DNA of 64,000 nt from Gammaproteobacteria bacterium (GCA_033852075.1 JAWSVC010000010.1:105683-169682); one strand, 5' to 3'. Counted from the stretch's first letter, positions 19,675-56,396 are shown. The notes: generated by a model from the sequence alone, not told the origin. Program-made: numbers and translations.

Positions 19675-19684
19675 ATCAAAAAAT

Positions 19685-23415: not shown

Positions 23416-23446
23416 TTTATTACCGGTAGAAAATTATATAAAGTCA

Positions 23447-23474: not shown

Positions 23475-23803
23475 AAAAAAGCAAAGTTATATTGCTTATT
23501 ATATCGATTAGGCCAATGAAAATAATGCAAAAACAACGACCAGGTCAACTTTCTAAGTGGATGAAGCCTTTATTTTGGACTATATATTTTAAGTTGGATA
23601 CTTTTTTGAGCGCGCTCAATATTATGGAAGATATTGGGTAGGAGTGGAAAAACGCTATGTTTTCAAATTCTTATCATTATGGTGTTTGTTGTGCTGCATT
23701 GTGGTAGTGCTAGGTATTGCATTTTTTCCACTTATCGGGAAAAGGGTTGGACGCATCGGAAAACAGCTGTCGGGTAAATAATAAAGTGCTAATAATAGAT
23801 GAT

Positions 23804-24340: not shown

Positions 24341-24356
24341 GTAAGAGGTTGCTGAT

Positions 24357-24860: not shown

Positions 24861-24901
24861 GGTGGCTTTCTTTATAAGAGATAAAAAAACAAGAGAAAAA
24901 T

Positions 24902-25942: not shown

Positions 25943-25969
25943 AAGCAGAACAATATAAAAGGTGTTCGC

Positions 25970-26509: not shown

Positions 26510-26559
26510 ATTGATTATTACGATAGTTATTAGGTCAGCATGAATTGAGGAGAAGAGAG

Positions 26560-30060: not shown

Positions 30061-30076
30061 TATAGGAGAAAAGATT

Positions 30077-30520
30077 ATGAAAAGGTTAAGATTAATACAA
30101 GGCTTGTTTATAGCGCTATTTGCTTTCTCTCCAATGCTGGCAAATGCAGAGGTCCCTTCCTGGTATCCGCAAACTGGGTACGATATTAGTGGTGTTGTTG
30201 TGCAGATTGATATTCGTAGTAGGGTAATTTTAATTGAAGATGATCAATTGAAGTTATCAACCAGCGTAAAAGCGCACAGTATTGCTGATGAATTTTATTC
30301 CCTTTCGCAAATAAAAGCTGGCGATTTTATTGGAGTAGATGTTTCTGAGTTATCAGATGGCAGTGTGGAAATTGTAGAAATATGGCTGCTTGATAAGGAG
30401 TCTCAATTGCAGGCGTTTCCAGTGCCTCCGGGAACACCTACAGTTTCTTCTAGTACAAAAAAAGATTCTGAGAAAGGTAATAGCCAGGGATTTGGGGTTA
30501 AAAAACAATGGAGAAAGTAA
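30077..30520 (+). CDS. Secreted small protein in the PilY2 position (hypothetical)
   Basis: 147 aa with a signal peptide (FALFAFSPMLANA). It sits between pilY1 and pilE and has no recognisable similarity. Confidence 0.35.
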   Translation: MKRLRLIQGLFIALFAFSPMLANAEVPSWYPQTGYDISGVVVQIDIRSRVILIEDDQLKLSTSVKAHSIADEFYSLSQIKAGDFIGVDVSELSDGSVEIVEIWLLDKESQLQAFPVPPGTPTVSSSTKKDSEKGNSQGFGVKKQWRK

Positions 30521-30939
30521 TGTATAGAAAACATAAAGGGTTTTCGCTGATAGAGTTAATGATTGTAGTTGCAGTAATGGCGATATTGGCAGCTGTAGCA
30601 TTTCCATCATATATGTCACACGTTCAAAAAACCCGTAGAGCTGATGGACAGTCAAAATTGATGGAGATAATGGGGCTGGAAGAGCGCCATTATTCTTTGA
30701 ATAATACTTATGTCGTGCTATCAGGATTGAGTGCCTATGGTAGTGATTCTGTAGATAGTGATGAGGGGTTCTATTCTATATCTGCGGCCGCATGTGGAAG
30801 TGGTCTTGGGAGTTGTGTGCAGTTAACAGCAACTCCGCAAGGTGCTCAGGCTAATGATAGTGAATGTGGAGCTCTTACCTATGATTCGCGAGGTCAAAAA
30901 GGTGAAGGTGGTACAGGATCGGTTGATGATTGTTGGTAA
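30520..30939 (+). CDS. pilE: Type IV minor pilin PilE
   Basis: KGFSLIELMIVVAVMAILAAVAFPSY, a C-terminal Cys pair, and last gene of the operon. Start ATG 30520, coupled to the upstream stop. Confidence 0.8.
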   Translation: MYRKHKGFSLIELMIVVAVMAILAAVAFPSYMSHVQKTRRADGQSKLMEIMGLEERHYSLNNTYVVLSGLSAYGSDSVDSDEGFYSISAAACGSGLGSCVQLTATPQGAQANDSECGALTYDSRGQKGEGGTGSVDDCW

Positions 30940-31240: not shown

Positions 31241-31368
31241 CAGGTATTAATACCGTTCGTGCTGAGCGCGAAGCAGTCGAAGTATGAAACGGTATTGATG
31301 AAAGGTTTGCAAGCACCCTTCGACTGCTCGTACCTCGCGCTCAGGATGAACGGGATTTTAAGCTTTTA
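31241..31368 (+). repeat. Composite palindromic intergenic element, copy 1
   Basis: CCGTTCGTGCTGAGCGCGAAGCAGTCGAAG ... CTTCGACTGCTCGTACCTCGCGCTCAGGATGAACGG are imperfect ~30-nt inverted arms. About 85% identical to 47577-47736 and to the reverse complement of 37224-37357. Confidence 0.7.
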
Positions 31369-33166: not shown

Positions 33167-33301
33167 AAATTAAAAGTCTACTGTATTGTATTCGCATTGC
33201 GTTTTTTATTCGTAAAATAAGTAGCATGCTGTTGTTCGGAGCAGGTTGGAATGTGGAGTTTATAAGCTGGGTTCAAATAGTAATTAATTAGCAGCTTTTT
33301 T

Positions 33302-33329
33302 TCTGGATTCCCGCCTTCACGGGAACGAC
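33302..33329. repeat. REP-like hairpin unit (inverted orientation, slightly degenerate)
   Basis: CTGGAT-tcccgccttcacgggaa-CGACG. Confidence 0.5.
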
Positions 33330-33426
33330 GGATGCGTAAATGCAAAAAACCCTTAATTTAACTCGCAATTATCCGCTATTTTTAGGATAATCTACGGTTC
33401 TGGTTGTCCGGTACGTCACTTGGGAT

Positions 33427-37223: not shown

Positions 37224-37357
37224 AAAAGCTATTCCGTTCATCCTGAGCGTGAGGTACGAACAGTCGAAGGGTGATAGTAAAAAGCCGAATTAATACCGTT
37301 TCATACTTCGACTGCTTCGCGCTCAGCACGAACGGCATTAATTTCCCCGGACAGCAG
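37224..37357 (-). repeat. Composite palindromic intergenic element, copy 2 (inverted)
   Basis: Reverse complement matches copies 1 and 3, including the flank CATTAATTTCCCCGGACAGCAG. Confidence 0.7.
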
Positions 37358-37448
37358 TGGGACTTGACTCGGTATCCAGTAAAAGAAAGTTTGCAGCGCG
37401 AAGCGCTAATTTTACGTAATATTAATGAATAGGATTCTTTTGGAGTAG

Positions 37449-37949
37449 TTGATGCTTAAGTGGTTATGGTTATCTGTAGTTGTAGTGATTGCCGATCAGA
37501 TAACCAAGATATTGGTTATTCAGAACTTTGAATATCAGGACGCAGTTGCCGTTTTGCCTGTATTTAATTTGGTGCACGTACATAATTTTGGTGCAGCGTT
37601 CAGCTTTTTAAGTACTGAAAGTGGTTGGCAGCGCTGGCTATTTGCCGGATTGGCGATAGTTATCAGCGTAATGATAGTATTTTGGATAAGCCGATTGAAA
37701 ATTGGTGAACGATTCACTGCTATTGGGCTTGCTCTTGTTTTAGGCGGTGCGGTTGGTAATTTGGTTGACCGTATTTATCATGGATATGTTATTGATTTTT
37801 TAGATTTTCATCTTGGAACAAATCATTGGCCTGCGTTTAATGTTGCTGATATTGCTATATCGGTTGGGGTTGTTGCGCTTATTATTCTTTCTTTTTTTGA
37901 TAAGAAGGATGTTATTGATAATAAAAAAGAGATTAACCAGAATGGTTGA
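37449..37949 (+). CDS. lspA: Lipoprotein signal peptidase II
   Basis: 166 aa with 4 TM segments, FNLVHVHNFGAAFSFL and NVADIAISVG. Confidence 0.92.
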   Translation: MMLKWLWLSVVVVIADQITKILVIQNFEYQDAVAVLPVFNLVHVHNFGAAFSFLSTESGWQRWLFAGLAIVISVMIVFWISRLKIGERFTAIGLALVLGGAVGNLVDRIYHGYVIDFLDFHLGTNHWPAFNVADIAISVGVVALIILSFFDKKDVIDNKKEINQNG

Positions 37950-38886
37950 GAAAATTCTGGTAGCCAATCCTCGTGGTTTTTGTGCTGGTGTGCAACGGGC
38001 AATTCAGATTGTTGAAACTGCATTGGCAAAATTTGGAGCACCAATATACGTAAGACATGAGATTGTACATAACCGTTTTGTGGTTGAAGGCCTAAAGGAT
38101 AAAGGGGTTGTTTTTGTCGAAAACGTTGAAGAGGTTCCTGAAGGAGAGATTGTAATATTTAGTGCTCATGGTGTTTCCAAGGAAGTAGAAAATAAGGCAA
38201 TTAATAGGAATCTACGTGTATTTGACGCAACTTGTCCACTTGTGTCTAAGATTCATTCTCAAGTTGTATCTAATGCAAAGGAAGGTAGGGATACGATTTT
38301 GATAGGGCATCCAGGTCATGCAGAGGTGGAAGGAACTCTTGGTCAATTTGCTGGGGCGGTTGCTTGTAGAGCAAAAATTCATGTTGTGGCAAATTTAGAT
38401 GATGTAGATAAGCTTGATATTGATGCTGAGAAGCCACTGGCATATGTGACTCAGACTACCCTATCCGTTGATGATGCAAGAGATATTTTGAGCTCTTTGC
38501 AGAAGAAGTATCCATATATTACTGGTCCTAAAAGTAAAGATATCTGTTATGCGACGCAAAATCGTCAAGATGCTGTAAAGAAGCTATCCAAACAGTCTGA
38601 TGTTATCTTTGTTGTAGGATCTAAAAATAGTTCCAACTCCAATCGATTGCGAGAAATTGGTGAAAAACATGGGGTGATGACATATCTGGTTGATTGTGCT
38701 GATGAAATAGAAGATTTTATGCTGCATGATGTGAAGATTGTTGGTGTTACCGCAGGTGCCTCTGCTCCTGAAGAGTTGGTGCAGGAAGTATTGAAAAAAT
38801 TAAGTAATGATGGGGCGGTTATTGAGCAGTTGGATGGGGTGGCGGAAAAAATAGTATTTTCTTTACCAAAACAATTGTTAAGATAG
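37942..38886 (+). CDS. ispH: 4-hydroxy-3-methylbut-2-enyl diphosphate reductase
   Basis: MVEKILVANPRGFCAGVQRAIQIVE, SAHGVS, and the three conserved Cys. The start overlaps the lspA stop (ATGGTTGA). The ORF-track 5' extension (37813) is an out-of-context reading through lspA. Confidence 0.93.
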   Translation: MVEKILVANPRGFCAGVQRAIQIVETALAKFGAPIYVRHEIVHNRFVVEGLKDKGVVFVENVEEVPEGEIVIFSAHGVSKEVENKAINRNLRVFDATCPLVSKIHSQVVSNAKEGRDTILIGHPGHAEVEGTLGQFAGAVACRAKIHVVANLDDVDKLDIDAEKPLAYVTQTTLSVDDARDILSSLQKKYPYITGPKSKDICYATQNRQDAVKKLSKQSDVIFVVGSKNSSNSNRLREIGEKHGVMTYLVDCADEIEDFMLHDVKIVGVTAGASAPEELVQEVLKKLSNDGAVIEQLDGVAEKIVFSLPKQLLR

Positions 38887-38960
38887 TCAATATGGCTAAA
38901 ATGAATGTTGATGGTTAAATCGCTAATTCGTATATAAAAAAATATAGCAAAGGGATTAAT

Positions 38961-39338
38961 TTGGTTGAAGGCAAAGACAAGACGATCTTAATTGTTGATG
39001 ATAGTAAGCTAGCAAGGCTAATAATCAGTAATATCATTAATGCATGTTATCCTCACTGGAAAATTATTGAGGCTGAGGATGTTGTTGATGCCGCAGAAAA
39101 ATCAAAGGGTAGATCTTTTGATGCTATTTCTCTTGATGTAAATATGCCTGGAGAGGATGGTTTGTCGTTCGCACCAAGGCTTAAAAAGATGTGCCCGGAT
39201 ATTCCAATTGCATTGCTTACGGCTAATATTCAACCTAAGGTGCAGGAAAGGGCAAAAGAATTGGGGCTTTATTTTATACCTAAGCCAATAACTAAAGATA
39301 AACTTGCCGGTTTTATGCAAGTTGTTTTGCAAAAGTGA
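38961..39338 (+). CDS. Single-domain response regulator (CheY-like receiver), TTG start
   Basis: KTILIVDDS, phospho-acceptor region LDVNMPGEDG, LLTAN, and the conserved K in FIPKP. Confidence 0.5.
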   Translation: MVEGKDKTILIVDDSKLARLIISNIINACYPHWKIIEAEDVVDAAEKSKGRSFDAISLDVNMPGEDGLSFAPRLKKMCPDIPIALLTANIQPKVQERAKELGLYFIPKPITKDKLAGFMQVVLQK

Positions 39339-39490
39339 TAAAAAAACTGACATCTTGTGTAAAAAAGCTTGACATTGCTGGTTATCGATACTAGCATTAT
39401 AGTGAATAAGCCTTTGTTTTATAATTCTTTTGTGAAGTTGTTTGGGGACACGCAATTAGGCTTCATTACTTTTTAAAACGAGAGTCATAG

Positions 39491-40933
39491 ATGGATATAA
39501 CAGCGCGCAAGCCATTTAATAACCCTATCTTATGGAATAAATACATTAGAGTATTTAGAAGCTATGTTCCGGCGTGGTTATTGGTGCTTGGTATTATTGA
39601 ACTACTGGTGCTGATGATTATTTCGGTGTTTGCAGCGGCAGAATTTGATTTCTATCAGTTGTTTGCTGCTGATGGTAATTGTTTTTCATGCCTTTTTAAG
39701 GCTGGAATATTTAGTATTACTATTTGGTTGTCTATGATCTCAATGGGATTGTATCAGCGTAGGTTGCGAGAAGGTGCTGCAGGTATTGCGTTGAGAGTTG
39801 TTATAAGTCATATATTTGGAGCAATAGCTCTATTTTGTTTTTATTTCATTATCCCCAATATATCTATTGATTTTAAAATTACTTTTGCCGCATTAATTAT
39901 CTCATATATATCTATATTGATGGTTAGAATTGCCTTTCTGCGTTTGGTGGGTACAGAAGTTTTCAAAAGTAGAGTTATGGTTTTAGGTACTGGAGAAAAG
40001 GCTGGGGGTATAACTCATCTTAAGCGTTGGATTGATACGGTTGGCTATACTTTGGTTGGTTTTATAAATGTTGGTAATAGTGAACCAAAGATAGATATAG
40101 ACCGCATAATAGATTCGAAAGGTAAAACTTTGGCTCAACTAGTTCGTGAATATTGCGTTGATGAAATTGTTATTGCCTTTGATGATCGCCGTCGGCGTAT
40201 GCCTATGGACGATTTGCTTGATTGTAAAATGCTTGGGGTGAGAGTTGTAGATCTTATTACCTTCTATGAAAGGGAAACCTATAAGCTTAAATTAGATGTT
40301 ATGGATCGGAGTTGGTTGATCTTTTCAGATGGATTTCAGCAAGGTGTATATGCTCGGTGGATAAAGCGAATATTGGATATTATTGTTAGTGGTTCAATAT
40401 TGTTAATAACGATGCCTATTATGGTAATCACTGCCATTGCGATAAAATTAGAAAGTCATGGAGGAGTATTTTATTCCCAAAAAAGAGTTGGTTTTGCTGG
40501 TAAGCTATATTCTGTGCACAAGTTTCGCAGTATGGTGGCCAATGCCGAAAAAAACGGAGCTCAATGGGCAACCAAGAACGATAGTCGGGTAACAAAGGTT
40601 GGAGGGTTTATCCGTCTGACGCGGATTGATGAGCTTCCACAATTATGGAATGTATTAAAAGGTGATATGAGTTTTGTCGGGCCACGCCCTGAACGTCCAG
40701 AGTTTGTTGATCAGTTTTGTGAACGGATTGAATATTATGCAGAACGGCATAGGGTAAAACCTGGTATAACTGGTTGGGCACAGGTGTGTTATCCATATGG
40801 TGCATCGGAAAGTGATGCGTTCGAGAAACTTCAATACGACCTTTATTATGCCAAGAATAGCAGCCTGTTTCTTGATCTTATGATTATATTGCAGACAGTT
40901 GAGGTTATAGTTTGGCAAAAAGGGGCTCGCTGA
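39491..40933 (+). CDS. epsB: EPS polyprenyl glycosylphosphotransferase, EpsB-type (PEP-CTERM-system-associated sugar transferase)
   Basis: 480 aa with N-terminal TM helices and a C-terminal bacterial sugar-transferase domain (PGITGWAQV, DLYYAKNSSLFLDLMIILQT). It sits immediately upstream of prsK/prsR/prsT. Confidence 0.75.
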   Translation: MDITARKPFNNPILWNKYIRVFRSYVPAWLLVLGIIELLVLMIISVFAAAEFDFYQLFAADGNCFSCLFKAGIFSITIWLSMISMGLYQRRLREGAAGIALRVVISHIFGAIALFCFYFIIPNISIDFKITFAALIISYISILMVRIAFLRLVGTEVFKSRVMVLGTGEKAGGITHLKRWIDTVGYTLVGFINVGNSEPKIDIDRIIDSKGKTLAQLVREYCVDEIVIAFDDRRRRMPMDDLLDCKMLGVRVVDLITFYERETYKLKLDVMDRSWLIFSDGFQQGVYARWIKRILDIIVSGSILLITMPIMVITAIAIKLESHGGVFYSQKRVGFAGKLYSVHKFRSMVANAEKNGAQWATKNDSRVTKVGGFIRLTRIDELPQLWNVLKGDMSFVGPRPERPEFVDQFCERIEYYAERHRVKPGITGWAQVCYPYGASESDAFEKLQYDLYYAKNSSLFLDLMIILQTVEVIVWQKGAR

Positions 40934-40997
40934 TTTTTTGCAGGGCGTATAGCAATCCGCCAATAATAATTCCGCACGATAGAGAGATATAAATAGA

Positions 40998-43109
40998 ATG
41001 ATAAATCTAACTCTTGTAGCCTACATCGTATGTGCGGTAGCTTACCTGTTTCTTTTTGTTGTCTTGCTTATTGGGTGGCGGGGTAAAAAGGAGGGTGCGG
41101 TATTATTACTTGTCAGCGTACTTACTTTTGTATGGGCAATTTCAGGAATGTTAGTTACCGTTTCTCACGGTCATTTGGTAGCAATATCATTAATAATTGA
41201 AGGTTTAAGAAATGTTGCGATCATTGCTTTTTTGTTAACGTTATTGAAAAAGGTAACCTCTTTAGTTATTGAAGGCGAACATGTAAAGTCTTCACCCTAT
41301 TATTATTCAGTGTTGTCGGTATCAATTTTAATTCTGGCTTACAGTATAGGAATAGATCTGTTAACTAGTTTTACCCCTTGGATTGGTACAGTAACCCCAG
41401 GCATTTCCGGTCACTTGGCGACTTCAGTTTTAATCTTAGCGTTACTTGAACAACTCTATAGAAATACTGCAAATGAAAAGCGCTGGGGAATAAAATATAT
41501 AAGCTTGGCTTTTGCTGGAATATTTGTATATGAATTTTATCTCTATGCAGATTCTTTGCTTTTTAGTCGGATTGAGGCTGGAATTTGGGGCGCGCGCCCT
41601 TGGATTGTGGCTGTAGTATCACCATTAATAGCGGTTTCAGCTGCCAGGAATCCTAAATGGTCGCTCGATGTTTACGTTTCCAGGCAGGCTGTATTTCATA
41701 CTGCAACCCTTATTTGTGCAGGCATCTATTTATTATTAATGTCAATTGCCGGATTCTATATCAAAAAATATGGTGGCGATTGGGGGGCTGTAGCACAAGC
41801 GGTCTTTATTTTTGCGGCAATAATGGGGCTTTTATTAATTGTATTGTCCGGAAAAGCACGCTCATGGTTAAAGGTAACGGTTAATAAACATTTTTTTAAT
41901 TATAAATATGACTATCGTGAAGAGTGGATCAGATTTAATAAAACGCTAACCGCTCTTGATGATATTTTACCAATTCGAAATCGAGCGATTAAATCATTGG
42001 CACAGATAGTAGAGTCGCCAGCCGGACTGTTATTCAGCAAAAACCAGAATGGTGATTATCATCTTGCTGCAAATTGGAATACCCCTTTGCCAAAATCAGA
42101 CCTTATAGAAAGGGATGATCCATTAGCATTATTTATTGAAGAGAAGGAATGGATTATTGACCTGAATGAAAAAGCTAAGACTATAAGGAGCGAAGTTGGA
42201 GGGGGTAAAGGTGATATGAAGTATCAGCATTTGGTAATTGGAGATACCTTAAGTTGTGAAGAATACAGGTTTATAGTGCCGCTGTTAAATGAATCAGAGA
42301 TGTATGGTTTTGTTGTATTAAACGAACCTAGGTCTAAGCGTACCCTTAATTGGGAAGATGTTGATATATTAAAAACAGCTGGAAACCAGGTGGCTAGCTA
42401 TCTTGCTCAATTTGATGCTAATAACCAATTAACTATATCTAGGCAGTTTGAGGCTTATAATAGGCTTTCAACATTTGTAATTCATGATGTAAAGAACCTA
42501 GTAGGTCAGTTAACGCTGCTAAGTGCTAATAGCAAAAAGTTCAGACATAATGAAAAGTTTATTGACGATGCCTTCGAAACTGTAGAAAACGCTGTAGATA
42601 AGATGAATCATTTACTTGAACAGCTACGCAGCGGTATTGAGAAAAAGATTGTAGGAAGAGTCAATATTAGTGAACTGATGAAAACCATTATTCAGTTACG
42701 TAAGGCATCTGGTATTGAGATAGAAATTTATGATGATAGTAGTGCAAACTTTATTAGTGCAGATAAGCAGGAGCTTTCTGCTGTAATTGAGCATATTTTG
42801 CAAAATGCGATTGATGCTACAGTATCAAATAAGGAACAGGCTAAAGTGAAGATCTGTATCAACTCAGATGCAGAATTTTCTACTGTAAAAATTGAAGATA
42901 ATGGAGAGGGAATGAGCAGAGAGTTTATTCGTGATCGTCTTTTTTCTCCATTTGATACAACTAAAGGGGATTCTGGTATGGGGGTTGGTGTATATCAAGC
43001 AAGAGAATATATCACCAGGATTGGCGGTAGGATTGAAGTATGTAGTGAAGTAGGAATTGGTACAACTTTTGAGTTGTATCTGCCACTCGCAGTTTCAAGT
43101 GAAGAGTAA
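40998..43109 (+). CDS. prsK: PEP-CTERM-system sensor histidine kinase PrsK-like
   Basis: 703 aa with about 8 N-terminal TM helices, a central GAF-like region, an H-box region FVIHDVKNLVGQL, and an HATPase C-terminus. It is adjacent to a sigma-54 response regulator and a large TPR protein. Confidence 0.7.
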   Translation: MINLTLVAYIVCAVAYLFLFVVLLIGWRGKKEGAVLLLVSVLTFVWAISGMLVTVSHGHLVAISLIIEGLRNVAIIAFLLTLLKKVTSLVIEGEHVKSSPYYYSVLSVSILILAYSIGIDLLTSFTPWIGTVTPGISGHLATSVLILALLEQLYRNTANEKRWGIKYISLAFAGIFVYEFYLYADSLLFSRIEAGIWGARPWIVAVVSPLIAVSAARNPKWSLDVYVSRQAVFHTATLICAGIYLLLMSIAGFYIKKYGGDWGAVAQAVFIFAAIMGLLLIVLSGKARSWLKVTVNKHFFNYKYDYREEWIRFNKTLTALDDILPIRNRAIKSLAQIVESPAGLLFSKNQNGDYHLAANWNTPLPKSDLIERDDPLALFIEEKEWIIDLNEKAKTIRSEVGGGKGDMKYQHLVIGDTLSCEEYRFIVPLLNESEMYGFVVLNEPRSKRTLNWEDVDILKTAGNQVASYLAQFDANNQLTISRQFEAYNRLSTFVIHDVKNLVGQLTLLSANSKKFRHNEKFIDDAFETVENAVDKMNHLLEQLRSGIEKKIVGRVNISELMKTIIQLRKASGIEIEIYDDSSANFISADKQELSAVIEHILQNAIDATVSNKEQAKVKICINSDAEFSTVKIEDNGEGMSREFIRDRLFSPFDTTKGDSGMGVGVYQAREYITRIGGRIEVCSEVGIGTTFELYLPLAVSSEE

Positions 43110-43122
43110 TAGGCTAGGCATT

Positions 43123-44478
43123 ATGGAACAAGATAATAGAAAACTATTGATCGTAGAAGATGATAAGGGACTTCAAAAGCAGCTGAAGTGGAGCTTTGAG
43201 GAGTTTGAAGTAATTATTGCAGAAAATCGTCAGAGTGCTATCAAAGAATTACGCAGGCATGAGCCTGCTGTTGTTACCCTGGATTTGGGTTTGCCTCCGG
43301 ATAGTAATGGAGCAACGGAAGGGTTAGCAACTTTAACCGAGATTATTCAACTTGCACCACATACAAAAGTGATTGTTGTAACCGGAAATGATGATCGAGA
43401 GAATGCAGTTAAGGCTGTGAGTTTAGGGGCATATGATTTCTATCAAAAACCTGTAGATGCTGAAGTTCTTCAGTTGATAGTTAATCGTGCTTATGCATTG
43501 GCAGAATTAGAAGAAGAAAATCGAAAGCTCAAGAAAGGAGGACCTGATAGTCCTCTGGATGGAGTAGTTGCATCTAGCCCGGAAATGTTAAAGGTATGTA
43601 GAACTGTTGAAAAGATATCGTCTGTAGAAGTGACGTCTTTATTGCTTGGTGAAAGCGGTACCGGTAAAGAGGTTATAGCAAAAGCGATTCATCAGTTAAG
43701 TCCTCGCGCACATAATAATTTTGTAGCGATAAACTGTGCTGCTATTCCAGAAAATCTATTAGAGAGTGAACTATTCGGATATGAAAAAGGTGCTTTTACC
43801 GGAGCGGCCAAAAGAACTATTGGGAAAATAGAGCATGCCAATAAAGGAACATTGTTCTTGGATGAAATTGGTGATTTGCCAATGTCTTTGCAGGCTAAAC
43901 TGTTAAGATTTTTACAGGAGCGAGTGATAGAACGCTTGGGGGGCAGGGAGGAAATTCCTATTGATGTCAGAGTTATTTGTGCAACTAACCAAAATTTGGA
44001 AGAGTTGATAAAAAATAGTGGATTTAGAGAGGATCTTTACTATCGTGTAAGCGAGGTTGTGATAAATCTGCCTCCGCTTAGAGATAGAAAAGGTGATTCC
44101 TTAGTTATAGCTAAAAATTTCCTTAACAGGTTTGCTATGCAATATGGCCGTAAAATCAAAGGATTTAGTTCTGATGGCGTGGTTGCTATTGAAGGGTATA
44201 AGTGGCCAGGTAATGTTAGAGAGTTGGAAAATAAACTTAAACGTGCAGTTGTGATGGCTGATGGTGAATTTATTACCGCTGAGGATTTGGAATTGAGATC
44301 CGACGAAAATGTAGCACAGATGCCGTTTAATCTTAGACAAGTTAGAGATGAGGCAGAAAGGGGATGTATAGTAAATGCATTAGCCTATACTGAAGGGAAT
44401 ATATCTCATGCTGCGGAATTGTTGGGTGTAACCCGTCCAACCTTATATACCATGTTGAATAAGTATGGATTAGGGTGA
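43123..44478 (+). CDS. prsR: Sigma-54-dependent response regulator (PEP-CTERM-box regulator PrsR-like)
   Basis: Receiver domain (LLIVEDDKGL), AAA+ sigma-54 activator domain (GESGTGKE, GAFTGA, ESELFGYEKGAFTG), and a C-terminal HTH. Start at MEQDNRK (ATG 43123). Confidence 0.85.
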   Translation: MEQDNRKLLIVEDDKGLQKQLKWSFEEFEVIIAENRQSAIKELRRHEPAVVTLDLGLPPDSNGATEGLATLTEIIQLAPHTKVIVVTGNDDRENAVKAVSLGAYDFYQKPVDAEVLQLIVNRAYALAELEEENRKLKKGGPDSPLDGVVASSPEMLKVCRTVEKISSVEVTSLLLGESGTGKEVIAKAIHQLSPRAHNNFVAINCAAIPENLLESELFGYEKGAFTGAAKRTIGKIEHANKGTLFLDEIGDLPMSLQAKLLRFLQERVIERLGGREEIPIDVRVICATNQNLEELIKNSGFREDLYYRVSEVVINLPPLRDRKGDSLVIAKNFLNRFAMQYGRKIKGFSSDGVVAIEGYKWPGNVRELENKLKRAVVMADGEFITAEDLELRSDENVAQMPFNLRQVRDEAERGCIVNALAYTEGNISHAAELLGVTRPTLYTMLNKYGLG

Positions 44479-44739
44479 GGGTGTAATATTTAATAACACA
44501 TTTTCCCTTCTCAAATCAAAGTGCTTACAGGCTCAATTTGTAATTTGATTGTTGAGGCTGTTGGGCGGGATTCTTCGATTTTCGAAGGAGAAATCTGTTA
44601 TTATTCATGAGCCTGATATTGTTGATGATATTTTTTCGGGCGGCTGAGAGTGAAGGTTGGTATCCAGTTTTTAATAAGCGTATTAAAACAGAAAAAAGTA
44701 ATAGGAATATTAAATTCTAGAAAGGAACAGGGGTTAAAA

Positions 44740-47508
44740 ATGTTTAAAAAGATAGTCATGGTTCTTATCGCATCATTTTTGATGCAGATGGCAGTTACCG
44801 CAAATGCTGCATCAAAAGAGCAGTATTTGCAGAGTGCAAAGAAGTATTTTCGCGAAAATAAATTTCGTGAGGCCATAATTGAGCTTAAAAATGCTATTAA
44901 GGATGATCCTGAATACATAGATGCCAGAATATTTCTAGGTGATGTAAATGCGGCTACTGGTCAGCCACTTGCAGCAGAAAAAGAATATTTATACGCAAAA
45001 AAAGCAGGAGCAAAGGCATCGCTGTGGATGTTGCCGCTTGGAGATGTTTATATAGGAATGGGGCGTTACGATGAAGTATTATCTCAACTTAAACTTGGCA
45101 CCGATGCCACCCCTGAAGAATTATCGAAATTGTCAGTGCTTCGTGGAATGGCTTATGCTGGCTTGAAAAAGAAAGACAAGGCTGAAGAGGAGTTTGTTCG
45201 TGCTAGTCAGCTAGATGAAAAAAATGCCAGGGCATATCTTGGTCAGGCATCTCTTATGGTTAATCCGGATCAGTTGGATAAGGTGGAAGAGTTTATTTCC
45301 AAAGCTATAGAAGTGGAACCAAAGTTAGTCGATGCTCATCTGGCAATGACCACAGCAAAACTAAGAAGAAAGGATGTTGATGCAGCCATAGTTTCAATCG
45401 AAAAGGCTAGAGAATTATCTCCTTACAATATAAGAGTATTATTGGCAGCATCAGATATCTATCTTCTTAAAGGAAATTTAGATAAGGCTCAGGAAGACGT
45501 AGATACCGTTTTAAAGTCCCATCCATCGTTACCGATTGCAAATCATGTGAAGGCAATGGTTTCATATTCGCGGCAGGACTATGAAAGTGCAAAAAATCAT
45601 GCAGATAAAGTGTTAAGGGTTTCTAAGGACTATTTGCCTGCTATTCGTCTGCTTGGTGCAATTGCCCTTAATCGTGGAGAATATAACTCTGCTCAGGAAT
45701 TGTTACAAAAGGCTCATAGTCTTGCTCCAAAAGATATAAAGGTATTAAGAGCCTTGGCAGATACCCAATATCGGGCCAGTGAATATGCAAAAGCAAAAAT
45801 AAGCTTGAAGAATCTTCTAGAGCTTGATGAGAAAGATGCTGCTGCCATGTCTATGTTAGGTTCTGTTTATCTAAAACTTGGTGAAAAGGAAAAGGGTAAA
45901 CAATATATGGAGCAAGCAGTAAAACTTGATCCGAACGCTGCCAAGCTAAAAACCAATCTGGCTTTGGCCAATATTGCGATGGGGGATACAAAAGGCGCCA
46001 TTAATGCTCTTGAAGCAATAGGTGTAGGTGATGAATCTGCTAGATCTGATGCGTTACTGGCAATGGCATATGCAAAAGATAAGGAATATGACAAAGCTTT
46101 TGAAATTGCAAACAGGATGATAGATGGTGATGTTAGTTTATCTGGGGCTTACAATTTACGTGGTGAGATAAATCTAATGGCCAAAAATAACGAAGCAGCT
46201 CTTGCTGATTTCGCTAAGGCAATAGAAATTAATTCGGATAATAATAAGGCAATGCTAAACCTTGCGCGAACCAATGCAATATTGGGTAAATATGATTTGG
46301 CGCAACAGCAATTTCAGAAGTTACTGGAAAAAAAGAAAGATAATCTAGAGGCTATGCTAGGGCTAGTTGAGATAGCAAGACTAAATAAAAATCAACTTCA
46401 GGTTCAAAGTTGGTTAGAAAAAATCAATGAATTACATCCTACTCATATTCCATCTGCCGGTTTGTTGGTAAGTGTTTATCTGGGCCAAAAGGAATACCTA
46501 AAAGCGCTAGGGGTTTCTAGGAAGCTATATCAGTTATATCCTAAAAATGCTGATGTGATTGCTTTGTATGCAGAGCAGTTGATGCAAAATGGTGAAAATA
46601 AACAAGCTGCAAATTATTTTAAAGATGCATTGGATATAAAAACTGATGATCCGAAATTATATATTAGATTGGCTAGAGCCTATGCCGCAGATAAGGCAAA
46701 TAAAAAGGCCTTAGAAACAATTGATAAAGGTCTTAAGGAGTTGCCGGAAAACATTCCTCTACTTAAGGGTAAGGTGCGTGTATTAAAGCATGATAAGCAA
46801 GATGATAAGGCTTTAGTATTGTGTGAACAGTTAATGAAAAAGTTGCCACAAGATCCATTTGCTTATGATTTTGCAGGAGATATTTATGTTCAGCAAGAAA
46901 AGTATAAAAAAGCGGATGAACTATATCGCAAGACGATAGATCTTCAAGATAATCCGCAAACAAGGATTAAACTTCATAAGTTACTTACATTAAAAGGTAA
47001 AAATGACGAGGCTTTGGATCTTTTGCGAGAATGGTATAAGAAAGATAATGCATCGCAGCAGCTAAATGCCGTGTTTGCTCTTAATTTACAGCAGGTTGGA
47101 GTAAAAGATGAGGCAATTAAGGTTTATGAAGTAATGGTAAAAAATAATCCTAATGATCTTGTGGCACTGAATAATCTTGCCTGGATGTATATGGAAAAAG
47201 GTGATCTGGAGAATGCTCAGAAAACTGGTGAGCAAGCATATAAAATCAATCCGGAAATGGTTGCTGTGCTTGATACCTATGGCTGGATTTTAGTAAAAAG
47301 TGGCAAGATAGATGAAGGACAAAAATTACTGCAGCAAGCAGTTAGTAAGGCTCCACAAGATCGTGATGTCAGATATCATGTTGCTGCGACGTTAGCTAAG
47401 AAAGGGGATGTTAAGGGCGCTGTGATTGAACTGAAACAGGCTCTTTCTGGGGATGTGGATTTTCTGAGTAGGGAAGAGGCGCAGGAATTATTGCAGAAAC
47501 TGCAATAG
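44740..47508 (+). CDS. prsT: PEP-CTERM-system TPR-repeat protein PrsT-like (secreted or lipoprotein)
   Basis: 922 aa made almost entirely of TPR repeats, with an N-terminal signal peptide MFKKIVMVLIASFLMQMAVTANA. Position and size match PrsT. Start ATG 44740. Confidence 0.65.
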   Translation: MFKKIVMVLIASFLMQMAVTANAASKEQYLQSAKKYFRENKFREAIIELKNAIKDDPEYIDARIFLGDVNAATGQPLAAEKEYLYAKKAGAKASLWMLPLGDVYIGMGRYDEVLSQLKLGTDATPEELSKLSVLRGMAYAGLKKKDKAEEEFVRASQLDEKNARAYLGQASLMVNPDQLDKVEEFISKAIEVEPKLVDAHLAMTTAKLRRKDVDAAIVSIEKARELSPYNIRVLLAASDIYLLKGNLDKAQEDVDTVLKSHPSLPIANHVKAMVSYSRQDYESAKNHADKVLRVSKDYLPAIRLLGAIALNRGEYNSAQELLQKAHSLAPKDIKVLRALADTQYRASEYAKAKISLKNLLELDEKDAAAMSMLGSVYLKLGEKEKGKQYMEQAVKLDPNAAKLKTNLALANIAMGDTKGAINALEAIGVGDESARSDALLAMAYAKDKEYDKAFEIANRMIDGDVSLSGAYNLRGEINLMAKNNEAALADFAKAIEINSDNNKAMLNLARTNAILGKYDLAQQQFQKLLEKKKDNLEAMLGLVEIARLNKNQLQVQSWLEKINELHPTHIPSAGLLVSVYLGQKEYLKALGVSRKLYQLYPKNADVIALYAEQLMQNGENKQAANYFKDALDIKTDDPKLYIRLARAYAADKANKKALETIDKGLKELPENIPLLKGKVRVLKHDKQDDKALVLCEQLMKKLPQDPFAYDFAGDIYVQQEKYKKADELYRKTIDLQDNPQTRIKLHKLLTLKGKNDEALDLLREWYKKDNASQQLNAVFALNLQQVGVKDEAIKVYEVMVKNNPNDLVALNNLAWMYMEKGDLENAQKTGEQAYKINPEMVAVLDTYGWILVKSGKIDEGQKLLQQAVSKAPQDRDVRYHVAATLAKKGDVKGAVIELKQALSGDVDFLSREEAQELLQKLQ

Positions 47509-47576
47509 TTCTTTTTGCTATGTAGGGGCGCGGCGTGCCGTGCCCAAATAAGTTTCATCTTTCTGCTAATAGCGTT

Positions 47577-47736
47577 GTCATTCCCGCGAAGGCGTGCTGC
47601 TGTCTGGGGAAATTAATGCCGTTCGTGCTGAGCGCGAAGCAGTCGAAGTATGAAATGGTATTAATTCAGTTGTTTACTATCACCCTTCGACTGTTCGTAC
47701 CTCACGCTCAGGATGAACGGAGATTTTAAGCTTTTT
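47577..47736 (+). repeat. Composite palindromic intergenic element, copy 3, with a half REP unit (GTCATTCCCGCGAAGGCG) at its 5' end
   Basis: Aligns with 31241-31368, and in inverted orientation with 37224-37357. It lies between convergent prsT and the RND gene. Confidence 0.7.
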
Positions 47737-47769
47737 CTCATTCCCAAACTCCACCTGATAACGCATAAT

Positions 47770-50700
47770 TTAATTCTCCACAAACGAAGTTGGTGGATCA
47801 ATTTCAGCATAAACTGGTTTCGTTGTTGCCCTTCTGTGTCCCAGTTTATATCCAAGCATTAACAAAGCCGGTGTCAGGATCAGGGTAAGAACTGTTGCAA
47901 AGGTTAGCCCTCCTGCAACTGCGGTTGCCAACTGTTTCCACCACTGAGAAGATGGGGCATCTATGGTTAAGTGTCTACCGATAAGGTCAATGTTCAGTCC
48001 CAGCATCATTGGCATTAGTCCGAGAATGGTGGTTACAGTTGTAAGCATTACCGGTCTTAATCTTTGGGCCCCGGTACGAATAATTGCCTCAGCAGCTCCC
48101 ATGTTGGTTGTTTCTAAAAGTTGGTTGAAGGTATCAATCAAAACGATATTGTTATTAACCACAATCCCTGCCAGAGATATAACTCCAATTCCACTCATAA
48201 CAATACCAAATGGTGTGCCAGTAATCATGTGCCCAAGTAAAACCCCTGCGGTTGAGAAAACGACCGCACTTAAGATCAGTAGCGACTGGAAGAAGCTATT
48301 GAATTGGGTAACTAGAATAATGGCAATCATAAATATTGCTACCATGAATGCCTTTAATAGGAATATAGTTGCTTTTTGCTGTTCTTCGTTGTCTCCACGG
48401 AAGCGGATGTTGACTCCGTTAGGAAGAATCTGATTTTTTTGTATTAGGCTTCGTATCTCTTTTATCTTTTGGTCCGATGTTACCTTTTCACCATTTTGAT
48501 CGGTTTTGATTATATCTGCCTCAATAGTTAGAACCCTTCTACCATCAACACGCTCTATCTTGCTGATTCTGTTTTTTGGGATCAGCTTTACAAAATTGCT
48601 GGCCGGAATATTTCCGTTTTGGGTTGGAATGCGAATCTTCTTAAGCTGATCAATGCTGCGGTTAACCTCTGGAAAACGGATGCGGATATCAAGTTCGTCT
48701 ACAGAGTCATCTGGGCGGAAAGTCCCGATATTGATGCCATTGGTAACCATCTGTACCGCATTGCCAAGGCTTGTAATATCTGCTCCATATTTGCTGGCTT
48801 CAGCGCGGTCTACTTTTAGTTGCCATTCAATTCCTGGGATAGGGCGTGAGTCGCTTATATTGATCAGCCCTTCAATCTCGTTATGAAACATATTGGACAG
48901 GTCCTCAATTGCAGGAGGAAGTAAATCGTAATCTATTGAATTTATTTCAACCTGGATGGCCTTGCCTTGGCTGGGACCATGTTTTTCTTTTTGAGTTTCT
49001 ATAACGATTCCGTTCAGGTGAACGGTGTTATCACGAATTTCCTGAAAGATCTCTTCTGCTGGTCTGCGGATTTGCCAATCGGCAAATTCAAGTTGAATAA
49101 TGCCGATAACATCTTCAGTTATGCCAGGGCCGCCAAACTTAAGTCCGCTTCTGCTATATACCGTAGTAAATCCTTCGATTTTCAGTACCTGATCTTCAAC
49201 CTCGGCTACAAGCTTGTCTCTTTCATAAATCGAAAGGTCTCCGCGAGCATGAATTAATACCATTCCATTTTCCGGTTCAGCTTCCGGGAACAGTTCAACG
49301 CCATTTCCAAATTTACCATAGAGAACTATGGTGCAAACCAGGATTAATAATATGCTTAAAAGGGTTTTTGCCGGATGTTTTACCGCGGTGGAAAGTACTT
49401 TTATGTATATCTTGGTAAAGCCTGTCATGTGATTTAGATCGCCAGATTCTGCAATAGCAAGGTTTTCCATATTGCGGTCACTATCTGGTGCCCGTTTGCC
49501 AAAGATTGACCCTAGGCTTGGTACAAATATAAGGGCCATAAATAATGAAGCTGCTAGAGTAGTAATCAGGGTTATGGGTAGATATTTCATAAACTCTCCC
49601 ATTATCCCCGGCCAGACAATTAATGGGGCAAAGGCGGCAAGTGTGGTTGCGGTTGATGCGATTATAGGCCATGCCATCCTTTTGGATGCGATCATATATG
49701 CCTGTTTTTTACAAAGCCCTTCGGCCATTTTGCGATCTGCTATCTCTACCACAACAATTGCGCCATCTACCAACATTCCTACCGACATAATAAGGCTGAA
49801 AAGCACTACCATGTTGATAGTAAACCCCATGGCAGCTAGGATTAGAATTCCGGTAACAAAAGATCCTGGTATCGCCATTCCTACCAGCCCAGCCGATCTT
49901 AATCCAAGTGAGGCGATAATAACGATCATTACCAGAATAACTGCAAATATTACGTTGTTCTGTAGTTCGCGCAGCATGTCGTTGATGACTATAGATTGAT
50001 CTTGAGAGAAACCGATATTTATACCTTTAGGCCATAGGCTTTGTTCATTCTTTACCAGCTGCTTTACCTTGGATAAGGTATCAATAACATTGGCACCAAT
50101 CGATTTTGAAACCTCCAGCGCAATTGCTGGTTGGCCATTAACTCTGGCGAACTCTAATGGATCTTTATATATCCTTTGGCCGGTTGCAATGTCACTGAAT
50201 TTTATAACGGTATTGCCATCTACCTTTATGGGGACATCAAGAATATCCTCAATCTCTTCAAATACTCCGGGAACCTTTATTGAGAATCGACCTTCTCCTG
50301 TGTCTAATGCACCTGCAGCAACCAAACGATTGTTGCGTGATACAAACTGGAATATTTCACTTTGAGAAAGGTGATAACTCTCCATTTTTTGTGGGTCGAT
50401 AACAATTTCGATCATCTCATCTTTATCGCCGGCAATGCTGGCTCCGTATACCCCTGATATTGATTCAATCTTGTCTTTAAGGTCATTGGCAATAGTTATT
50501 AAAGTGCGATCAGATACATCTCCTGATAAGGTGATAACTAAAACGGGAAACAGGGCAACATTTACCTCGCTTACCACTGGGTCATCAGATTCTCCAGGCA
50601 GGTCTGATTTGGCGGTATCAACCTTATCACGAACATCGCGCAGGGCTTTTTCACTGTCAAATCCAGCTTGGAATTTAATGGTGATATTTGCATTACTTTC

Positions 50701-56087: not shown

Positions 56088-56178
56088 AGCTATTGCTCTC
56101 ATGACACTTTTTAGCGTTGCTGAGATCCCTGATATAGGCAGTAATGCTGTTGGGGAAAGATATAATAGCTAAATATAG

Positions 56179-56259
56179 CGTCATACCGGCGAAGGCCGGT
56201 ATCCAGGAAAGTTAAGGATATATTAATAGCACTGGATGCCGGCCTTCGCCGGCATGACG
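56179..56259. repeat. Inverted pair of REP-like hairpin units (CGTCAT-accggcgaaggccggt-ATCCAG ... CTGGAT-gccggccttcgccggc-ATGACG)
   Basis: Two perfect units in opposite orientation, about 25 nt apart, in the argG-mutL spacer. Confidence 0.7.
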
Positions 56260-56396
56260 ATAGGTTGCTTCAAAGGTAGATAAGAAAATGTAGGGTGGGC
56301 AATGCCCGCCTTTTTTGATTTTTCGGACCCTTCGGCTACGCTCAGGGAGCTTAAAAAAACAAGTTACGGATTAAAAAACCAGGAATTAACTACCAT

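What the first reader, a model, noticed from the sequence alone, without database searches (positions are those of the whole stretch)
39491..47508. PEP-CTERM/exosortase-type regulatory module (EpsB-PrsK-PrsR-PrsT) without exosortase or PEP-CTERM substrates in the window
Gene sizes and architectures match the described PEP-CTERM system components. These are an EpsB-type priming sugar transferase, a multi-TM GAF histidine kinase, a sigma-54 enhancer-binding response regulator, and a ~920-aa TPR protein with signal peptide. The usual partners are exosortase XrtA/EpsH, EpsI-like amidotransferase and PEP-CTERM proteins. Here the locus ends in a repeat element and a convergent RND pump, so the module may be a remnant. 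Alternatively it may regulate distal targets through sigma-54 promoters with a PEP-CTERM box. The assignment rests on architecture, not on measured similarity.
Basis: partly seen in the sequence, partly recalled or inferred. Interest (0 to 1): 0.5.

Follow-up and report, generated by a model that had tools for sequence, protein, structure and literature searches.

The report
Ordinary PEP-CTERM regulatory operon (epsB-prsKRT)
This is an intact, conserved copy of the known four-gene operon (sugar transferase EpsB, sensor kinase PrsK, sigma-54 activator PrsR, TPR protein PrsT) that controls cell aggregation in bacteria with the PEP-CTERM/exosortase system, and its position away from the exosortase gene is the usual arrangement, so the finding is correct but ordinary.

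Summary
Window 39491-47508 holds four co-oriented genes.
- TIGR03013 EpsB_2: 539 bits (cut-off 393)
- TIGR02916 PrsK: 722 (300)
- TIGR02915 PrsR: 742 (503)
- TIGR02917 PrsT: 628 (312)

The 64-kb window holds no exosortase and no PEP-CTERM tail.

The "remnant" reading is not supported:
- The whole neighbourhood, from murJ through the module to the convergent RND pump, is syntenic in three other uncultured marine gammaproteobacterial species.
- Synonymous sites are saturated, yet dN is only 0.06-0.30, the same range as the flanking housekeeping genes.
- All catalytic motifs are intact.

The downstream "repeat element" is a 125-nt hairpin repeat (MITE-like) with three copies in the window. The relatives lack it, so it was inserted later into an ancestral gene boundary.

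Separation from the exosortase is normal. Haft et al. 2006 found prsKR near EpsH in only 3 of 13 genomes. Here, 1 of 28 PrsK loci with full 10-kb flanks holds XrtA.

I could not show whether the source genome encodes XrtA. Seven look-ups of candidate XrtA proteins all came from other organisms.

Verdict: a known system, correctly recognised, of low interest.

The parts
38961..39338 (+). Stand-alone CheY-like receiver protein (125 aa) just upstream of the operon. It is a neighbour conserved within this clade and may be an accessory phospho-acceptor. It is not part of the published system.
   Evidence: Pfam Response_reg 70 bits. The phospho-acceptor motif SLDVNMP is at residue 57. It occupies the same position in L002-L004 at 68-83% identity and is absent there in more distant loci.
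39357..39397 (+). Conserved promoter block of the operon: GTGTAAAAAAGCTTGACA, followed by a 17-nt spacer and TAGCAT (sigma-70-like, 10 of 12 matches).
   Evidence: It is the best promoter-like site in 38700-47900. The 18-nt block that holds the -35 hexamer is invariant in four genomes, while the rest of the intergenic region has diverged.
39491..40933 (+). epsB (EpsB_2, TIGR03013): membrane polyprenyl-phosphate sugar-phosphate transferase, the priming enzyme of exopolysaccharide synthesis.
   Evidence: TIGR03013 538.6 bits (cut-off 393.35), profile positions 4-443 of 443. Pfam Bac_transf 233.5 bits at residues 292-474. The DELPQ motif is at residue 380, and hydropathy shows four N-terminal hydrophobic segments plus one at 297-315.
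40998..43109 (+). prsK: XrtA/PEP-CTERM system sensor histidine kinase with a multi-spanning N-terminal sensor region.
   Evidence: TIGR02916 722.3 bits (cut-off 300), profile positions 2-679 of 679. Seven hydrophobic segments lie in residues 7-283. The H-box HDVKN is at 496 and the G1 box DNGEGM at 634. HATPase_c scores 69 bits; GAF_3 is weak at 23 bits.
43123..44478 (+). prsR: PEP-CTERM-box response regulator, an NtrC-type sigma-54 enhancer-binding protein.
   Evidence: TIGR02915 741.9 bits (cut-off 502.6), profile positions 1-444 of 445. Pfam finds Response_reg, Sigma54_activat (237 bits), AAA_lid_14 and HTH_8. The receiver Asp lies in DLGLP at 54, Walker A GESGTGKE at 176 and GAFTGA at 223. 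The start at 43123 matches the call on the identical Logan contig.
44740..47508 (+). prsT: secreted TPR-repeat protein of about 900 aa in its mature form. It has a type I signal peptide (…MAVTANA/AS) and no lipobox cysteine.
   Evidence: TIGR02917 627.6 bits (cut-off 312.2), profile positions 5-898 of 899. The N-terminus and RBS were read directly. The same Cys-less signal peptide is present in L002-L004.
47597..47721 (.). 125-nt hairpin-forming dispersed repeat (MITE/REP-like) between the convergent prsT and RND permease genes. It marks the boundary and is not part of the system.
   Evidence: Further copies lie at 37233-37357 (inverted, 96%) and 31246-31356. It folds at -49.4 kcal/mol, z = -5.3. 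It is absent from L002-L004, and the short-read contig L001 ends 39 nt inside both inverted copies.

Best explanation
The region is a functional epsB-prsK-prsR-prsT operon, the regulatory and priming arm of an XrtA/PEP-CTERM exopolysaccharide system, in an uncultured marine gammaproteobacterium. Inferred from the families and from published genetics: PrsK senses an unknown envelope signal through its multi-spanning N-terminal domain and phosphorylates PrsR. Phospho-PrsR binds enhancer sites (the 'PEP-CTERM box') upstream of -24/-12 promoters and uses its AAA+ domain to open sigma-54 RNA polymerase complexes at PEP-CTERM protein genes elsewhere on the chromosome. EpsB primes the exopolysaccharide repeat unit on a polyprenyl phosphate. 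PrsT acts in the periplasm. Together they keep exopolysaccharide bound to the cells, which gives flocs or biofilm. Shown here: the family memberships, the intact motifs, the conserved operon structure with a conserved sigma-70-like promoter, and purifying selection. Inferred, not shown: the distal targets, the exosortase and the signal.
For: All four equivalog or subfamily HMMs match over their full length at 1.4-2.4 times their cut-offs. The catalytic and signalling motifs are intact. The order epsB-prsK-prsR-prsT recurs in 12 other loci from diverse Gammaproteobacteria, and epsB lies directly upstream of prsK in 25. The whole neighbourhood is syntenic in L002-L004. dN is 0.06-0.30 with synonymous sites saturated (pS at least 0.70), the same as for ileS, murJ and the RND pump. 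The promoter block is invariant in four genomes. Literature: the phylogenetic profile of PrsK/PrsR/PrsT exactly matches that of the sigma-54 PEP-CTERM box in the 13 PEP-CTERM-positive proteobacterial genomes, and the genes lie near EpsH in only 3 of 13 (PMC1569441). In Aquincola, transposon hits in epsB2, prsK and prsT abolish flocs, and epsB2-prsK-prsR form a locus apart from the large EPS cluster (PMC9850573). In Zoogloea, prsK and prsR mutants are planktonic, release soluble EPS, and are rescued by overexpressing a PEP-CTERM protein (summarised in PMC9012009). The nearest relative, Madre6, is a MAG from a bioplastic biofilm (PMC6566015), which fits an aggregation system.
Against: No exosortase, PEP-CTERM protein, rpoN or convincing -24/-12 promoter lies in the 64-kb window. 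I could not show that the source genome or its three close relatives encode XrtA: seven candidate XrtA proteins looked up all came from other organisms. PrsT lacks the lipoprotein cysteine in the original family description. No function was tested experimentally in this lineage.
Confidence: 0.85

Rival explanations
1. Remnant: the module is left over from a PEP-CTERM/exosortase locus whose other genes were lost or cut off at the repeat element, and it is decaying or functionless.
For: No exosortase or substrate gene lies in the 64 kb. A repeat element sits directly after prsT. The presence of XrtA in the genome was not established.
Against: All four ORFs are full length against their HMMs, with intact motifs. 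The same module between the same housekeeping neighbours, with the same convergent RND pump after prsT, occurs in three other species that lack the repeat. dN is low while synonymous sites are saturated, as for essential neighbours. The repeat is a dispersed 125-nt hairpin element with three copies in the window, not a truncation scar. Detachment from EpsH is the majority arrangement (10 of 13 genomes in PMC1569441; 27 of 28 loci here).
Confidence: 0.03
2. Repurposed module: this clade has lost the exosortase and PEP-CTERM substrates but keeps EpsB-PrsK-PrsR-PrsT under selection, to control exopolysaccharide or other sigma-54 targets independently of protein sorting.
For: Selection on the module is shown, but its partners are not. 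None of 120 XrtA homologues retrieved could be traced to the clade. PrsT has changed from a lipoprotein to a soluble periplasmic form in this clade. A clade-specific stand-alone receiver gene sits upstream.
Against: The published co-occurrence of PrsK/R/T with EpsH and PEP-CTERM proteins in Proteobacteria is strict. The XrtA search was limited to the 120 best of 322 hits to one distant seed, and to 7 look-ups, so the failure says little. Cys-less PrsT also occurs in other lineages (L012, L018, L054).
Confidence: 0.08
3. Generic genes: an ordinary AtoS/AtoC- or NtrB/NtrC-type two-component system next to an unrelated sugar transferase and a generic TPR protein.
For: PrsR also aligns end to end with AtoC (406 bits) and with NtrC (375 bits). 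PrsT hits many TPR models.
Against: Those hits are below their cut-offs (714 and 559), whereas TIGR02915 scores 742 against 503. PrsK scores 722 on TIGR02916 and at most 86 on any other kinase model. TIGR02917 covers 894 of 899 profile positions.
Confidence: 0.02
4. Mobile cassette: the 10.2-kb segment lspA-ispH-RR-epsB-prsKRT, bracketed by inverted 125-nt repeats, was acquired or is mobilised as a composite element.
For: Inverted copies that are 96% complementary lie at 37233-37357 and 47597-47721.
Against: The same genes in the same order, including the housekeeping lspA and ispH, are present in relatives that lack the repeats. No transposase is present. GC content and GC skew are continuous across the segment.
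Confidence: 0.02

Closest known systems
PEP-CTERM regulatory genes PrsK/PrsR/PrsT as defined by Haft et al. 2006 (PMC1569441), e.g. Thiobacillus denitrificans Tbd_0195-0198 and Hahella chejuensis HCH_02747-02749
   Same: The same three families by equivalog HMMs. prsK and prsR are in tandem, prsT is adjacent, and a glycosyltransferase is next to them. As in T. denitrificans and Nitrosospira multiformis, the locus tags place the module far from EpsH (Table 1).
   Different: Here PrsT has a type I signal peptide instead of the lipoprotein signal in the original description. A stand-alone receiver gene precedes the operon. The host is an uncultured low-GC marine gammaproteobacterium.
epsB2-prsK-prsR locus of Aquincola tertiaricarbonis RN12 (PMC9850573)
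   Same: A TIGR03013 sugar transferase is directly followed by prsK and prsR, in a locus separate from the large EPS biosynthesis cluster. Genetics there show it is required for floc formation.
   Different: In Aquincola, prsT lies at another locus, downstream of the PEP-CTERM gene pepA. Here prsT is the fourth gene of the operon and no pepA-like gene is nearby.
Zoogloea resiniphila MMB PrsK-PrsR/RpoN control of PEP-CTERM genes (Gao et al. 2018, as summarised in PMC9012009)
   Same: This is the presumed mode of action: the two-component system and sigma-54 switch on PEP-CTERM protein genes, which keep exopolysaccharide cell-bound.
   Different: No target gene, rpoN or PEP-CTERM box could be identified in the sequence available here.
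Contiguous XrtA loci, e.g. L086 (prsT-export-chain length-kinase-OM protein...XrtA), L092 and L046
   Same: The same families (PrsT, PrsK, PrsR, Bac_transf) are present.
   Different: In those genomes the regulatory genes adjoin the XrtA/EpsI exosortase and the glycosyltransferase cluster. In the window they sit alone between ispH and an RND efflux operon.
AtoS/AtoC and NtrB/NtrC two-component systems
   Same: PrsR shares the REC, sigma-54 AAA+ and Fis-type HTH architecture and the GAFTGA loop.
   Different: Scores are below the AtoC and NtrC cut-offs. The kinase has a different, multi-spanning sensor domain.

Membership tests
TIGR03013 (EpsB_2, XrtA/PEP-CTERM system glycosyltransferase) | Full-length HMM score above the curated cut-off, and higher than on sister sugar-transferase models | tested here: met
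   538.6 bits against a cut-off of 393.35, profile positions 4-443 of 443. The next model, TIGR03025, scores 412. WcaJ and WbaP are below their cut-offs.
TIGR03013 (EpsB_2, XrtA/PEP-CTERM system glycosyltransferase) | C-terminal Bac_transf (PF02397) catalytic domain with the Asp-Glu dyad, preceded by membrane segments | tested here: met
   PF02397 233.5 bits at residues 292-474. DELPQ is at 380, with hydrophobic segments at 28-148 and 297-315. Assigning the dyad as catalytic rests on my knowledge of the PglC/WbaP family.
TIGR03013 (EpsB_2, XrtA/PEP-CTERM system glycosyltransferase) | Encoded next to prsK, prsR or prsT | tested here: met
   prsK starts 64 nt after the epsB stop. The same adjacency occurs in 25 other loci.
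TIGR02916 (PrsK) | Full-length equivalog HMM score above the cut-off | tested here: met
   722.3 bits against 300, profile positions 2-679 of 679. The best other kinase model scores 86 bits.
TIGR02916 (PrsK) | Multi-spanning N-terminal domain plus a histidine kinase core (H-box, HATPase_c) | tested here: met
   Seven hydrophobic segments in residues 7-283, H-box at 496, G1 box at 634. HATPase_c 69 bits.
   Pfam GAF_3 scores 23.0 bits, below the gathering score of 27, and covers only residues 418-470. A homologue on L092 carries weak GAF_2 and GAF_3 marks.
TIGR02915 (PrsR) | Full-length equivalog HMM score above the cut-off and above AtoC/NtrC | tested here: met
   741.9 bits against 502.6. AtoC scores 405.9 (cut-off 714) and NtrC 374.8 (cut-off 558.6).
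TIGR02915 (PrsR) | Receiver, sigma-54 interaction AAA+ domain with GAFTGA, and Fis-type HTH; encoded next to prsK | tested here: met
   Pfam finds Response_reg, Sigma54_activat, AAA_lid_14 and HTH_8. GAFTGA is at 223, Walker A at 176 and the receiver Asp at 54. The gene starts 14 nt after the prsK stop.
TIGR02917 (PrsT) | Full-length equivalog HMM score above the cut-off | tested here: met
   627.6 bits against 312.2, profile positions 5-898 of 899.
TIGR02917 (PrsT) | Lipoprotein signal sequence (as in the 2006 description and the model name PEP_TPR_lipo) | tested here: not met
   The N-terminus MFKKIVMVLIASFLMQMAVTANAAS has no cysteine, so it is a type I signal peptide. The same holds in L002-L004, L012, L018 and L054, while 8 other homologues carry a lipobox Cys. 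The HMM does not require this feature, so I treat it as a variable trait and not as grounds for exclusion.
XrtA/PEP-CTERM system (whole system) | Exosortase XrtA/EpsH (TIGR03109/TIGR02602) encoded in the same genome | not testable with these tools
   None lies in the window (tblastn with 120 XrtA proteins). Seven XrtA candidates looked up belong to other organisms.
XrtA/PEP-CTERM system (whole system) | PEP-CTERM substrate proteins (TIGR02595 tail) | tested here: not met
   No ORF in the window ends in a PEP motif followed by a hydrophobic stretch and a basic tail. This covers the window only, and substrates are normally dispersed single-gene operons.
XrtA/PEP-CTERM system (whole system) | Sigma-54 -24/-12 promoter with an upstream PEP-CTERM box (motif 1 ending in TTTACA) | tested here: inconclusive
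   No site matches TGGCAC-N5-TTGCW in 10 or more of 11 positions. The best intergenic match scores 9 of 11, at 63721 (-), upstream of an unannotated 412-aa gene. The full motif 1 is published only as a logo, so it could not be scanned.

The most novel reading that the evidence does not exclude
The clade of bioplastic-biofilm gammaproteobacteria keeps a strongly conserved epsB-prsK-prsR-prsT operon but has no exosortase or PEP-CTERM substrates. In that case the two-component system and the now non-lipidated PrsT would control exopolysaccharide retention or other sigma-54 targets independently of protein sorting, possibly with the clade-specific stand-alone receiver as an extra phosphorelay branch.
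Probability: 0.07. Interest if true: 0.45.

Novelty: already known. Interest (0 to 1): 0.12.

Why it matters
It matters little beyond annotation. The locus shows that this uncultured marine gammaproteobacterial lineage carries the regulatory arm of the PEP-CTERM aggregation system. Its nearest relatives were recovered from PHA/PHB bioplastic biofilms, so an aggregation system fits the surface-attached lifestyle. The case is also a useful caution for genome scans. The absence of an exosortase within tens of kilobases of prsKRT is the normal arrangement, and a flanking dispersed repeat is not evidence of locus decay.

Tried and rejected
1. Finding the exosortase of the source organism.
- I obtained an XrtA seed from L046 (TIGR03109 278.6 bits) and searched the protein collection, which gave 322 hits with 120 listed.
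- I ranked candidates by source, amino-acid composition and clustering pattern and looked up seven.
- None came from SRR26541473, QZLE01, JAWSVA01 or JAWSVB01, none carried the window's repeat, and none had close EpsB or PrsT homologues. I then stopped.

2. Sigma-54 promoter scan of the window. There was no strong site and nothing in the module's own intergenic regions. The PEP-CTERM box motif 1 could not be scanned because only its 3' TTTACA is given in text. The reverse strand of the conserved epsB promoter block contains TTTACA, but that hexamer is too common in 40% GC DNA to count as evidence.

3. dN/dS as a ratio. Synonymous sites are saturated (pS 0.66-0.86), so most dS values are undefined. 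I report only dN and the saturation.

4. Composite-transposon reading of the inverted repeats. Rejected on synteny.

5. Rfam scan of the window. It found nothing in or next to the module.

6. Literature search for the accessions. It identified only the Madre MAG paper and nothing on the PJM12 or BHT14 MAGs or on SRR26541473.

Full report
**Observation.** The region 39491-47508 holds four co-oriented ORFs at exactly the reported limits. I scanned them against NCBIfam.

| Window coordinates | Model | Bits | Cut-off |
|---|---|---|---|
| 39491-40933 | TIGR03013 EpsB_2 | 538.6 | 393.35 |
| 40998-43109 | TIGR02916 PrsK | 722.3 | 300 |
| 43057-44478 | TIGR02915 PrsR | 741.9 | 502.6 |
| 44650-47508 | TIGR02917 PrsT | 627.6 | 312.2 |

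The generic rivals fail: AtoC scores 405.9 bits against a cut-off of 714, NtrC 374.8 against 558.6, and no other kinase model exceeds 86 bits.

**Start codons.** Two starts should be moved.
- PrsR starts at ATG 43123 (451 aa), as called on an identical public contig.
- PrsT starts at ATG 44740 (922 aa). This start sits behind an AGGAACAGGGG ribosome-binding site and is followed directly by a signal peptide.

**Anatomy.**
- EpsB has four N-terminal hydrophobic segments, a further one at 297-315, and a C-terminal Bac_transf domain (233.5 bits) with the DELPQ motif at residue 380.
- PrsK has seven hydrophobic segments in its first 283 residues, an H-box (HDVKN, 496) and an HATPase_c domain.
- PrsR has a receiver domain with its acceptor Asp at 54, Walker A at 176, the sigma-54 contact loop GAFTGA at 223, an AAA lid and a Fis-type HTH.
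- PrsT is TPR repeats throughout. Its signal peptide ends …TANA/AS and has no cysteine, so it is not a lipoprotein here, unlike the family's original description. Among 16 homologues in fetched loci, eight have a lipobox Cys. The others, including the three closest relatives, do not.
- A sigma-70-like promoter (TTGACA, 17 nt, TAGCAT; 39369-39397) lies 94 nt upstream of epsB. Its -35 hexamer sits in an 18-nt block, GTGTAAAAAAGCTTGACA, that is invariant in four genomes while the rest of the spacer has diverged.
- A stem-loop with a T-tract overlaps the prsT stop codon (47483-47513).

**Surroundings.** The rest of the window is chromosomal housekeeping:
- Upstream: speE, an MCP, rpoH, ftsXEY, two M16 peptidases, rsmD, coaD, trmL, phasin, rpiA, pepP, a type IV pilus minor-pilin/PilY1 operon, murJ, ribF, ileS, lspA, ispH and a stand-alone receiver protein.
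- Downstream, after the module: a convergent RND permease and adaptor, HDIG and radical SAM genes, pyrC, argG, mutL, miaA, hflX and a GGDEF protein.

No ORF in the window ends in a PEP-CTERM-like tail. tblastn with 120 XrtA proteins finds nothing in the window. The stated absence is real at window scale.

**Source and relatives.** The exact PrsK sequence is on record only on a 10.3-kb Logan contig from SRR26541473. That contig is 100% identical to window 37319-47635. Among one genome per species, the nearest PrsK relatives are:
- MAG Madre6 (77%);
- PJM12_PHB_gam1 and BHT14_PHBH_gam1 (69%);
- Madre5 (about 50%).

All are labelled only as Gammaproteobacteria. Madre5 and Madre6 came from biofilms on PHA bioplastic at a lagoon sediment surface and have 39.7% and 41.1% GC (PMC6566015). 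The window has about 40% GC.

**Remnant or functional.** In L002-L004 the complete order is preserved at 60-93% amino-acid identity: murJ-ribF-ileS-lspA-ispH-receiver-epsB-prsK-prsR-prsT, followed by the convergent RND permease, adaptor, HDIG and rSAM genes. Both boundaries of the module are therefore ancestral. Between the window and these genomes, synonymous sites are saturated (pS 0.66-0.86). Non-synonymous divergence of the four genes is 0.06-0.30, the same range as ileS, murJ and the RND pump. PrsR (93% identity to L002) is as conserved as IleS (92%). This is purifying selection over a long divergence, not decay.

Madre5 carries the same four-gene cassette in a different housekeeping setting (mltF, relA, pcm, lapB, pyrF, nudF). 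The order epsB-prsK-prsR-prsT recurs in 12 loci, and epsB lies directly upstream of prsK in 25.

**The repeat element.** The sequence after prsT contains a 125-nt element (47597-47721). A 96% inverted copy lies between ileS and lspA (37233-37357), and a direct copy of about 88% identity lies before murJ (31246-31356). The element folds into a long hairpin (-49.4 kcal/mol, z = -5.3). It is absent from L002-L004. The short-read contig L001 breaks 39 nt inside both inverted copies, as expected for a multi-copy dispersed repeat. It is a MITE/REP-like insertion into a pre-existing intergenic gap between convergent genes. It is not the edge of a truncated locus, and synteny also excludes a composite mobile cassette.

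**Is separation from the exosortase unusual?** No.
- Haft et al. 2006 report that prsK and prsR are tandem in 12 of 13 genomes, tandem with prsT in 4 of 13, near EpsH in only 3 of 13, and near glycosyltransferases in 12 of 13. Their Table 1 lists, for example, Thiobacillus denitrificans PrsT/R/K as Tbd_0195-0198 and EpsH as Tbd_0290 and Tbd_1792.
- In Aquincola tertiaricarbonis, epsB2-prsK-prsR is a locus of its own, apart from the large EPS cluster and from pepA-prsT.
- In my sample, 28 PrsK loci have full 10-kb flanks. Only L046 holds an XrtA (TIGR03109 278.6 bits).
- Four further loci (L008, L013, L014, L034) run from prsT straight into XrtA-system export genes.
- Contiguous arrangements also exist in loci fetched through XrtA (L086, L092).

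**Exosortase in this genome.** This is the one point I could not settle. From the L046 seed I retrieved 120 XrtA proteins and looked up the seven most plausible by source, composition and clustering. All belong to other organisms. The search lists only the 120 best of 322 hits to a seed that is probably about 30-35% identical to the clade's XrtA, so the failure carries little weight. The expectation that XrtA and PEP-CTERM genes exist elsewhere rests on the published exact co-occurrence of PrsK/R/T with the PEP-CTERM box in the 13 PEP-CTERM-positive proteobacterial genomes and on the selection shown above.

**Mechanism.** Shown here: the families, motifs, operon structure and selection. Inferred from the families and from published genetics:
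- PrsK autophosphorylates in response to an unknown signal and transfers the phosphate to PrsR.
- PrsR binds enhancer sites upstream of -24/-12 promoters and activates sigma-54 transcription of dispersed PEP-CTERM protein genes.
- EpsB primes exopolysaccharide synthesis.
- PrsT acts in the periplasm.

In Zoogloea, prsK and prsR mutants still make exopolysaccharide but release it and stay planktonic, and overexpression of a PEP-CTERM protein bypasses the defect (PMC9012009). In Aquincola, insertions in epsB2, prsK and prsT abolish flocs, and pepA transcription needs RpoN1 (PMC9850573). A crude -24/-12 scan found no strong sigma-54 site in the window and none in the module's own spacers. This fits an operon driven by its conserved sigma-70-like promoter with its targets elsewhere.

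**Verdict.** The remnant idea is rejected, and the distal-regulation idea is simply the known behaviour of this system. Standard annotation pipelines would name all four genes from the same HMMs. The only mildly non-canonical details are the Cys-less PrsT, the clade-specific stand-alone receiver upstream, and a 261-nt prsR-prsT spacer where relatives have about 50-60 nt. Novelty: already known. Interest: low.

Noticed in passing
window 47597-47721, 37233-37357 (inverted), 31246-31356: A 125-nt hairpin-forming dispersed repeat (MITE/REP-like; -49.4 kcal/mol, z = -5.3) has three copies in intergenic gaps of the window. The three related genomes lack it, and a public short-read assembly breaks at two of the copies. 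The two inverted copies bracket 10.2 kb (lspA to prsT) and could in principle mediate an inversion.
   Followed up: partly
window 11475-11578, 23446-23480, 33297-33330, 56176-56262: A second family of short palindromic intergenic repeats (about 28-32 nt, core CGTCATACCGGCGAAGGCCGGTATCCAG) occurs singly or as inverted pairs. It looks REP-like.
   Followed up: no
window 19690-19874 (-): 6S RNA (Rfam RF00013, 70.3 bits) lies directly upstream of the 5-formyltetrahydrofolate cyclo-ligase gene. The mechanical ORF 19054-19806 (GTG start) overlaps it, and the HMM match begins at residue 48, so the real start of that gene is further downstream.
   Followed up: partly
window 38961-39338 (+); L005:7783-8256, L012:7325-7801, L052:7741-8214: A stand-alone CheY-like receiver gene sits just upstream of epsB in the window and its three close relatives. 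In three more distant lineages a small cyclic-nucleotide-binding-domain protein of about 157 aa occupies the same position. A small signalling protein upstream of epsB may be a recurring but variable accessory.
   Followed up: partly
window 44479-44739: The prsR-prsT spacer is 261 nt in the window but only about 50-60 nt in L002-L004. Nothing recognisable was found in it: no repeat, Rfam hit or sigma-54 site.
   Followed up: partly
window 44740-44815; L002-L004, L012, L018, L054: PrsT in this clade and some other lineages has a type I signal peptide without the lipobox cysteine, while eight other homologues have a clear lipobox. The 'lipoprotein' in the family name is therefore not universal.
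   Followed up: partly
window 63706-63721 (-), upstream of 62417-63655 (-): The best intergenic -24/-12-like match in the window (GGGTACATACCTTGCA, 9 of 11) lies upstream of a 412-aa protein with no Pfam or NCBIfam hit. That gene is followed, with overlapping stop and start, by a GGDEF diguanylate cyclase gene (61011-62417).
   Followed up: no
window 23717-30939 (+): A type IV pilus minor-pilin operon (PilV hit, a PilY1/PilC-like protein of 1171 aa, and several small pilin-like ORFs without family hits) lies 8 kb upstream of the module. This is another surface-attachment function in the same neighbourhood.
   Followed up: no
L018 (Madre5, QZLD01000037.1) 8496-16242: The same epsB-prsK-prsR-prsT cassette sits in a different housekeeping context (mltF, relA, pcm, lapB, pyrF, nudF upstream). 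The four genes therefore travel or persist as a unit independent of their flanks.
   Followed up: partly
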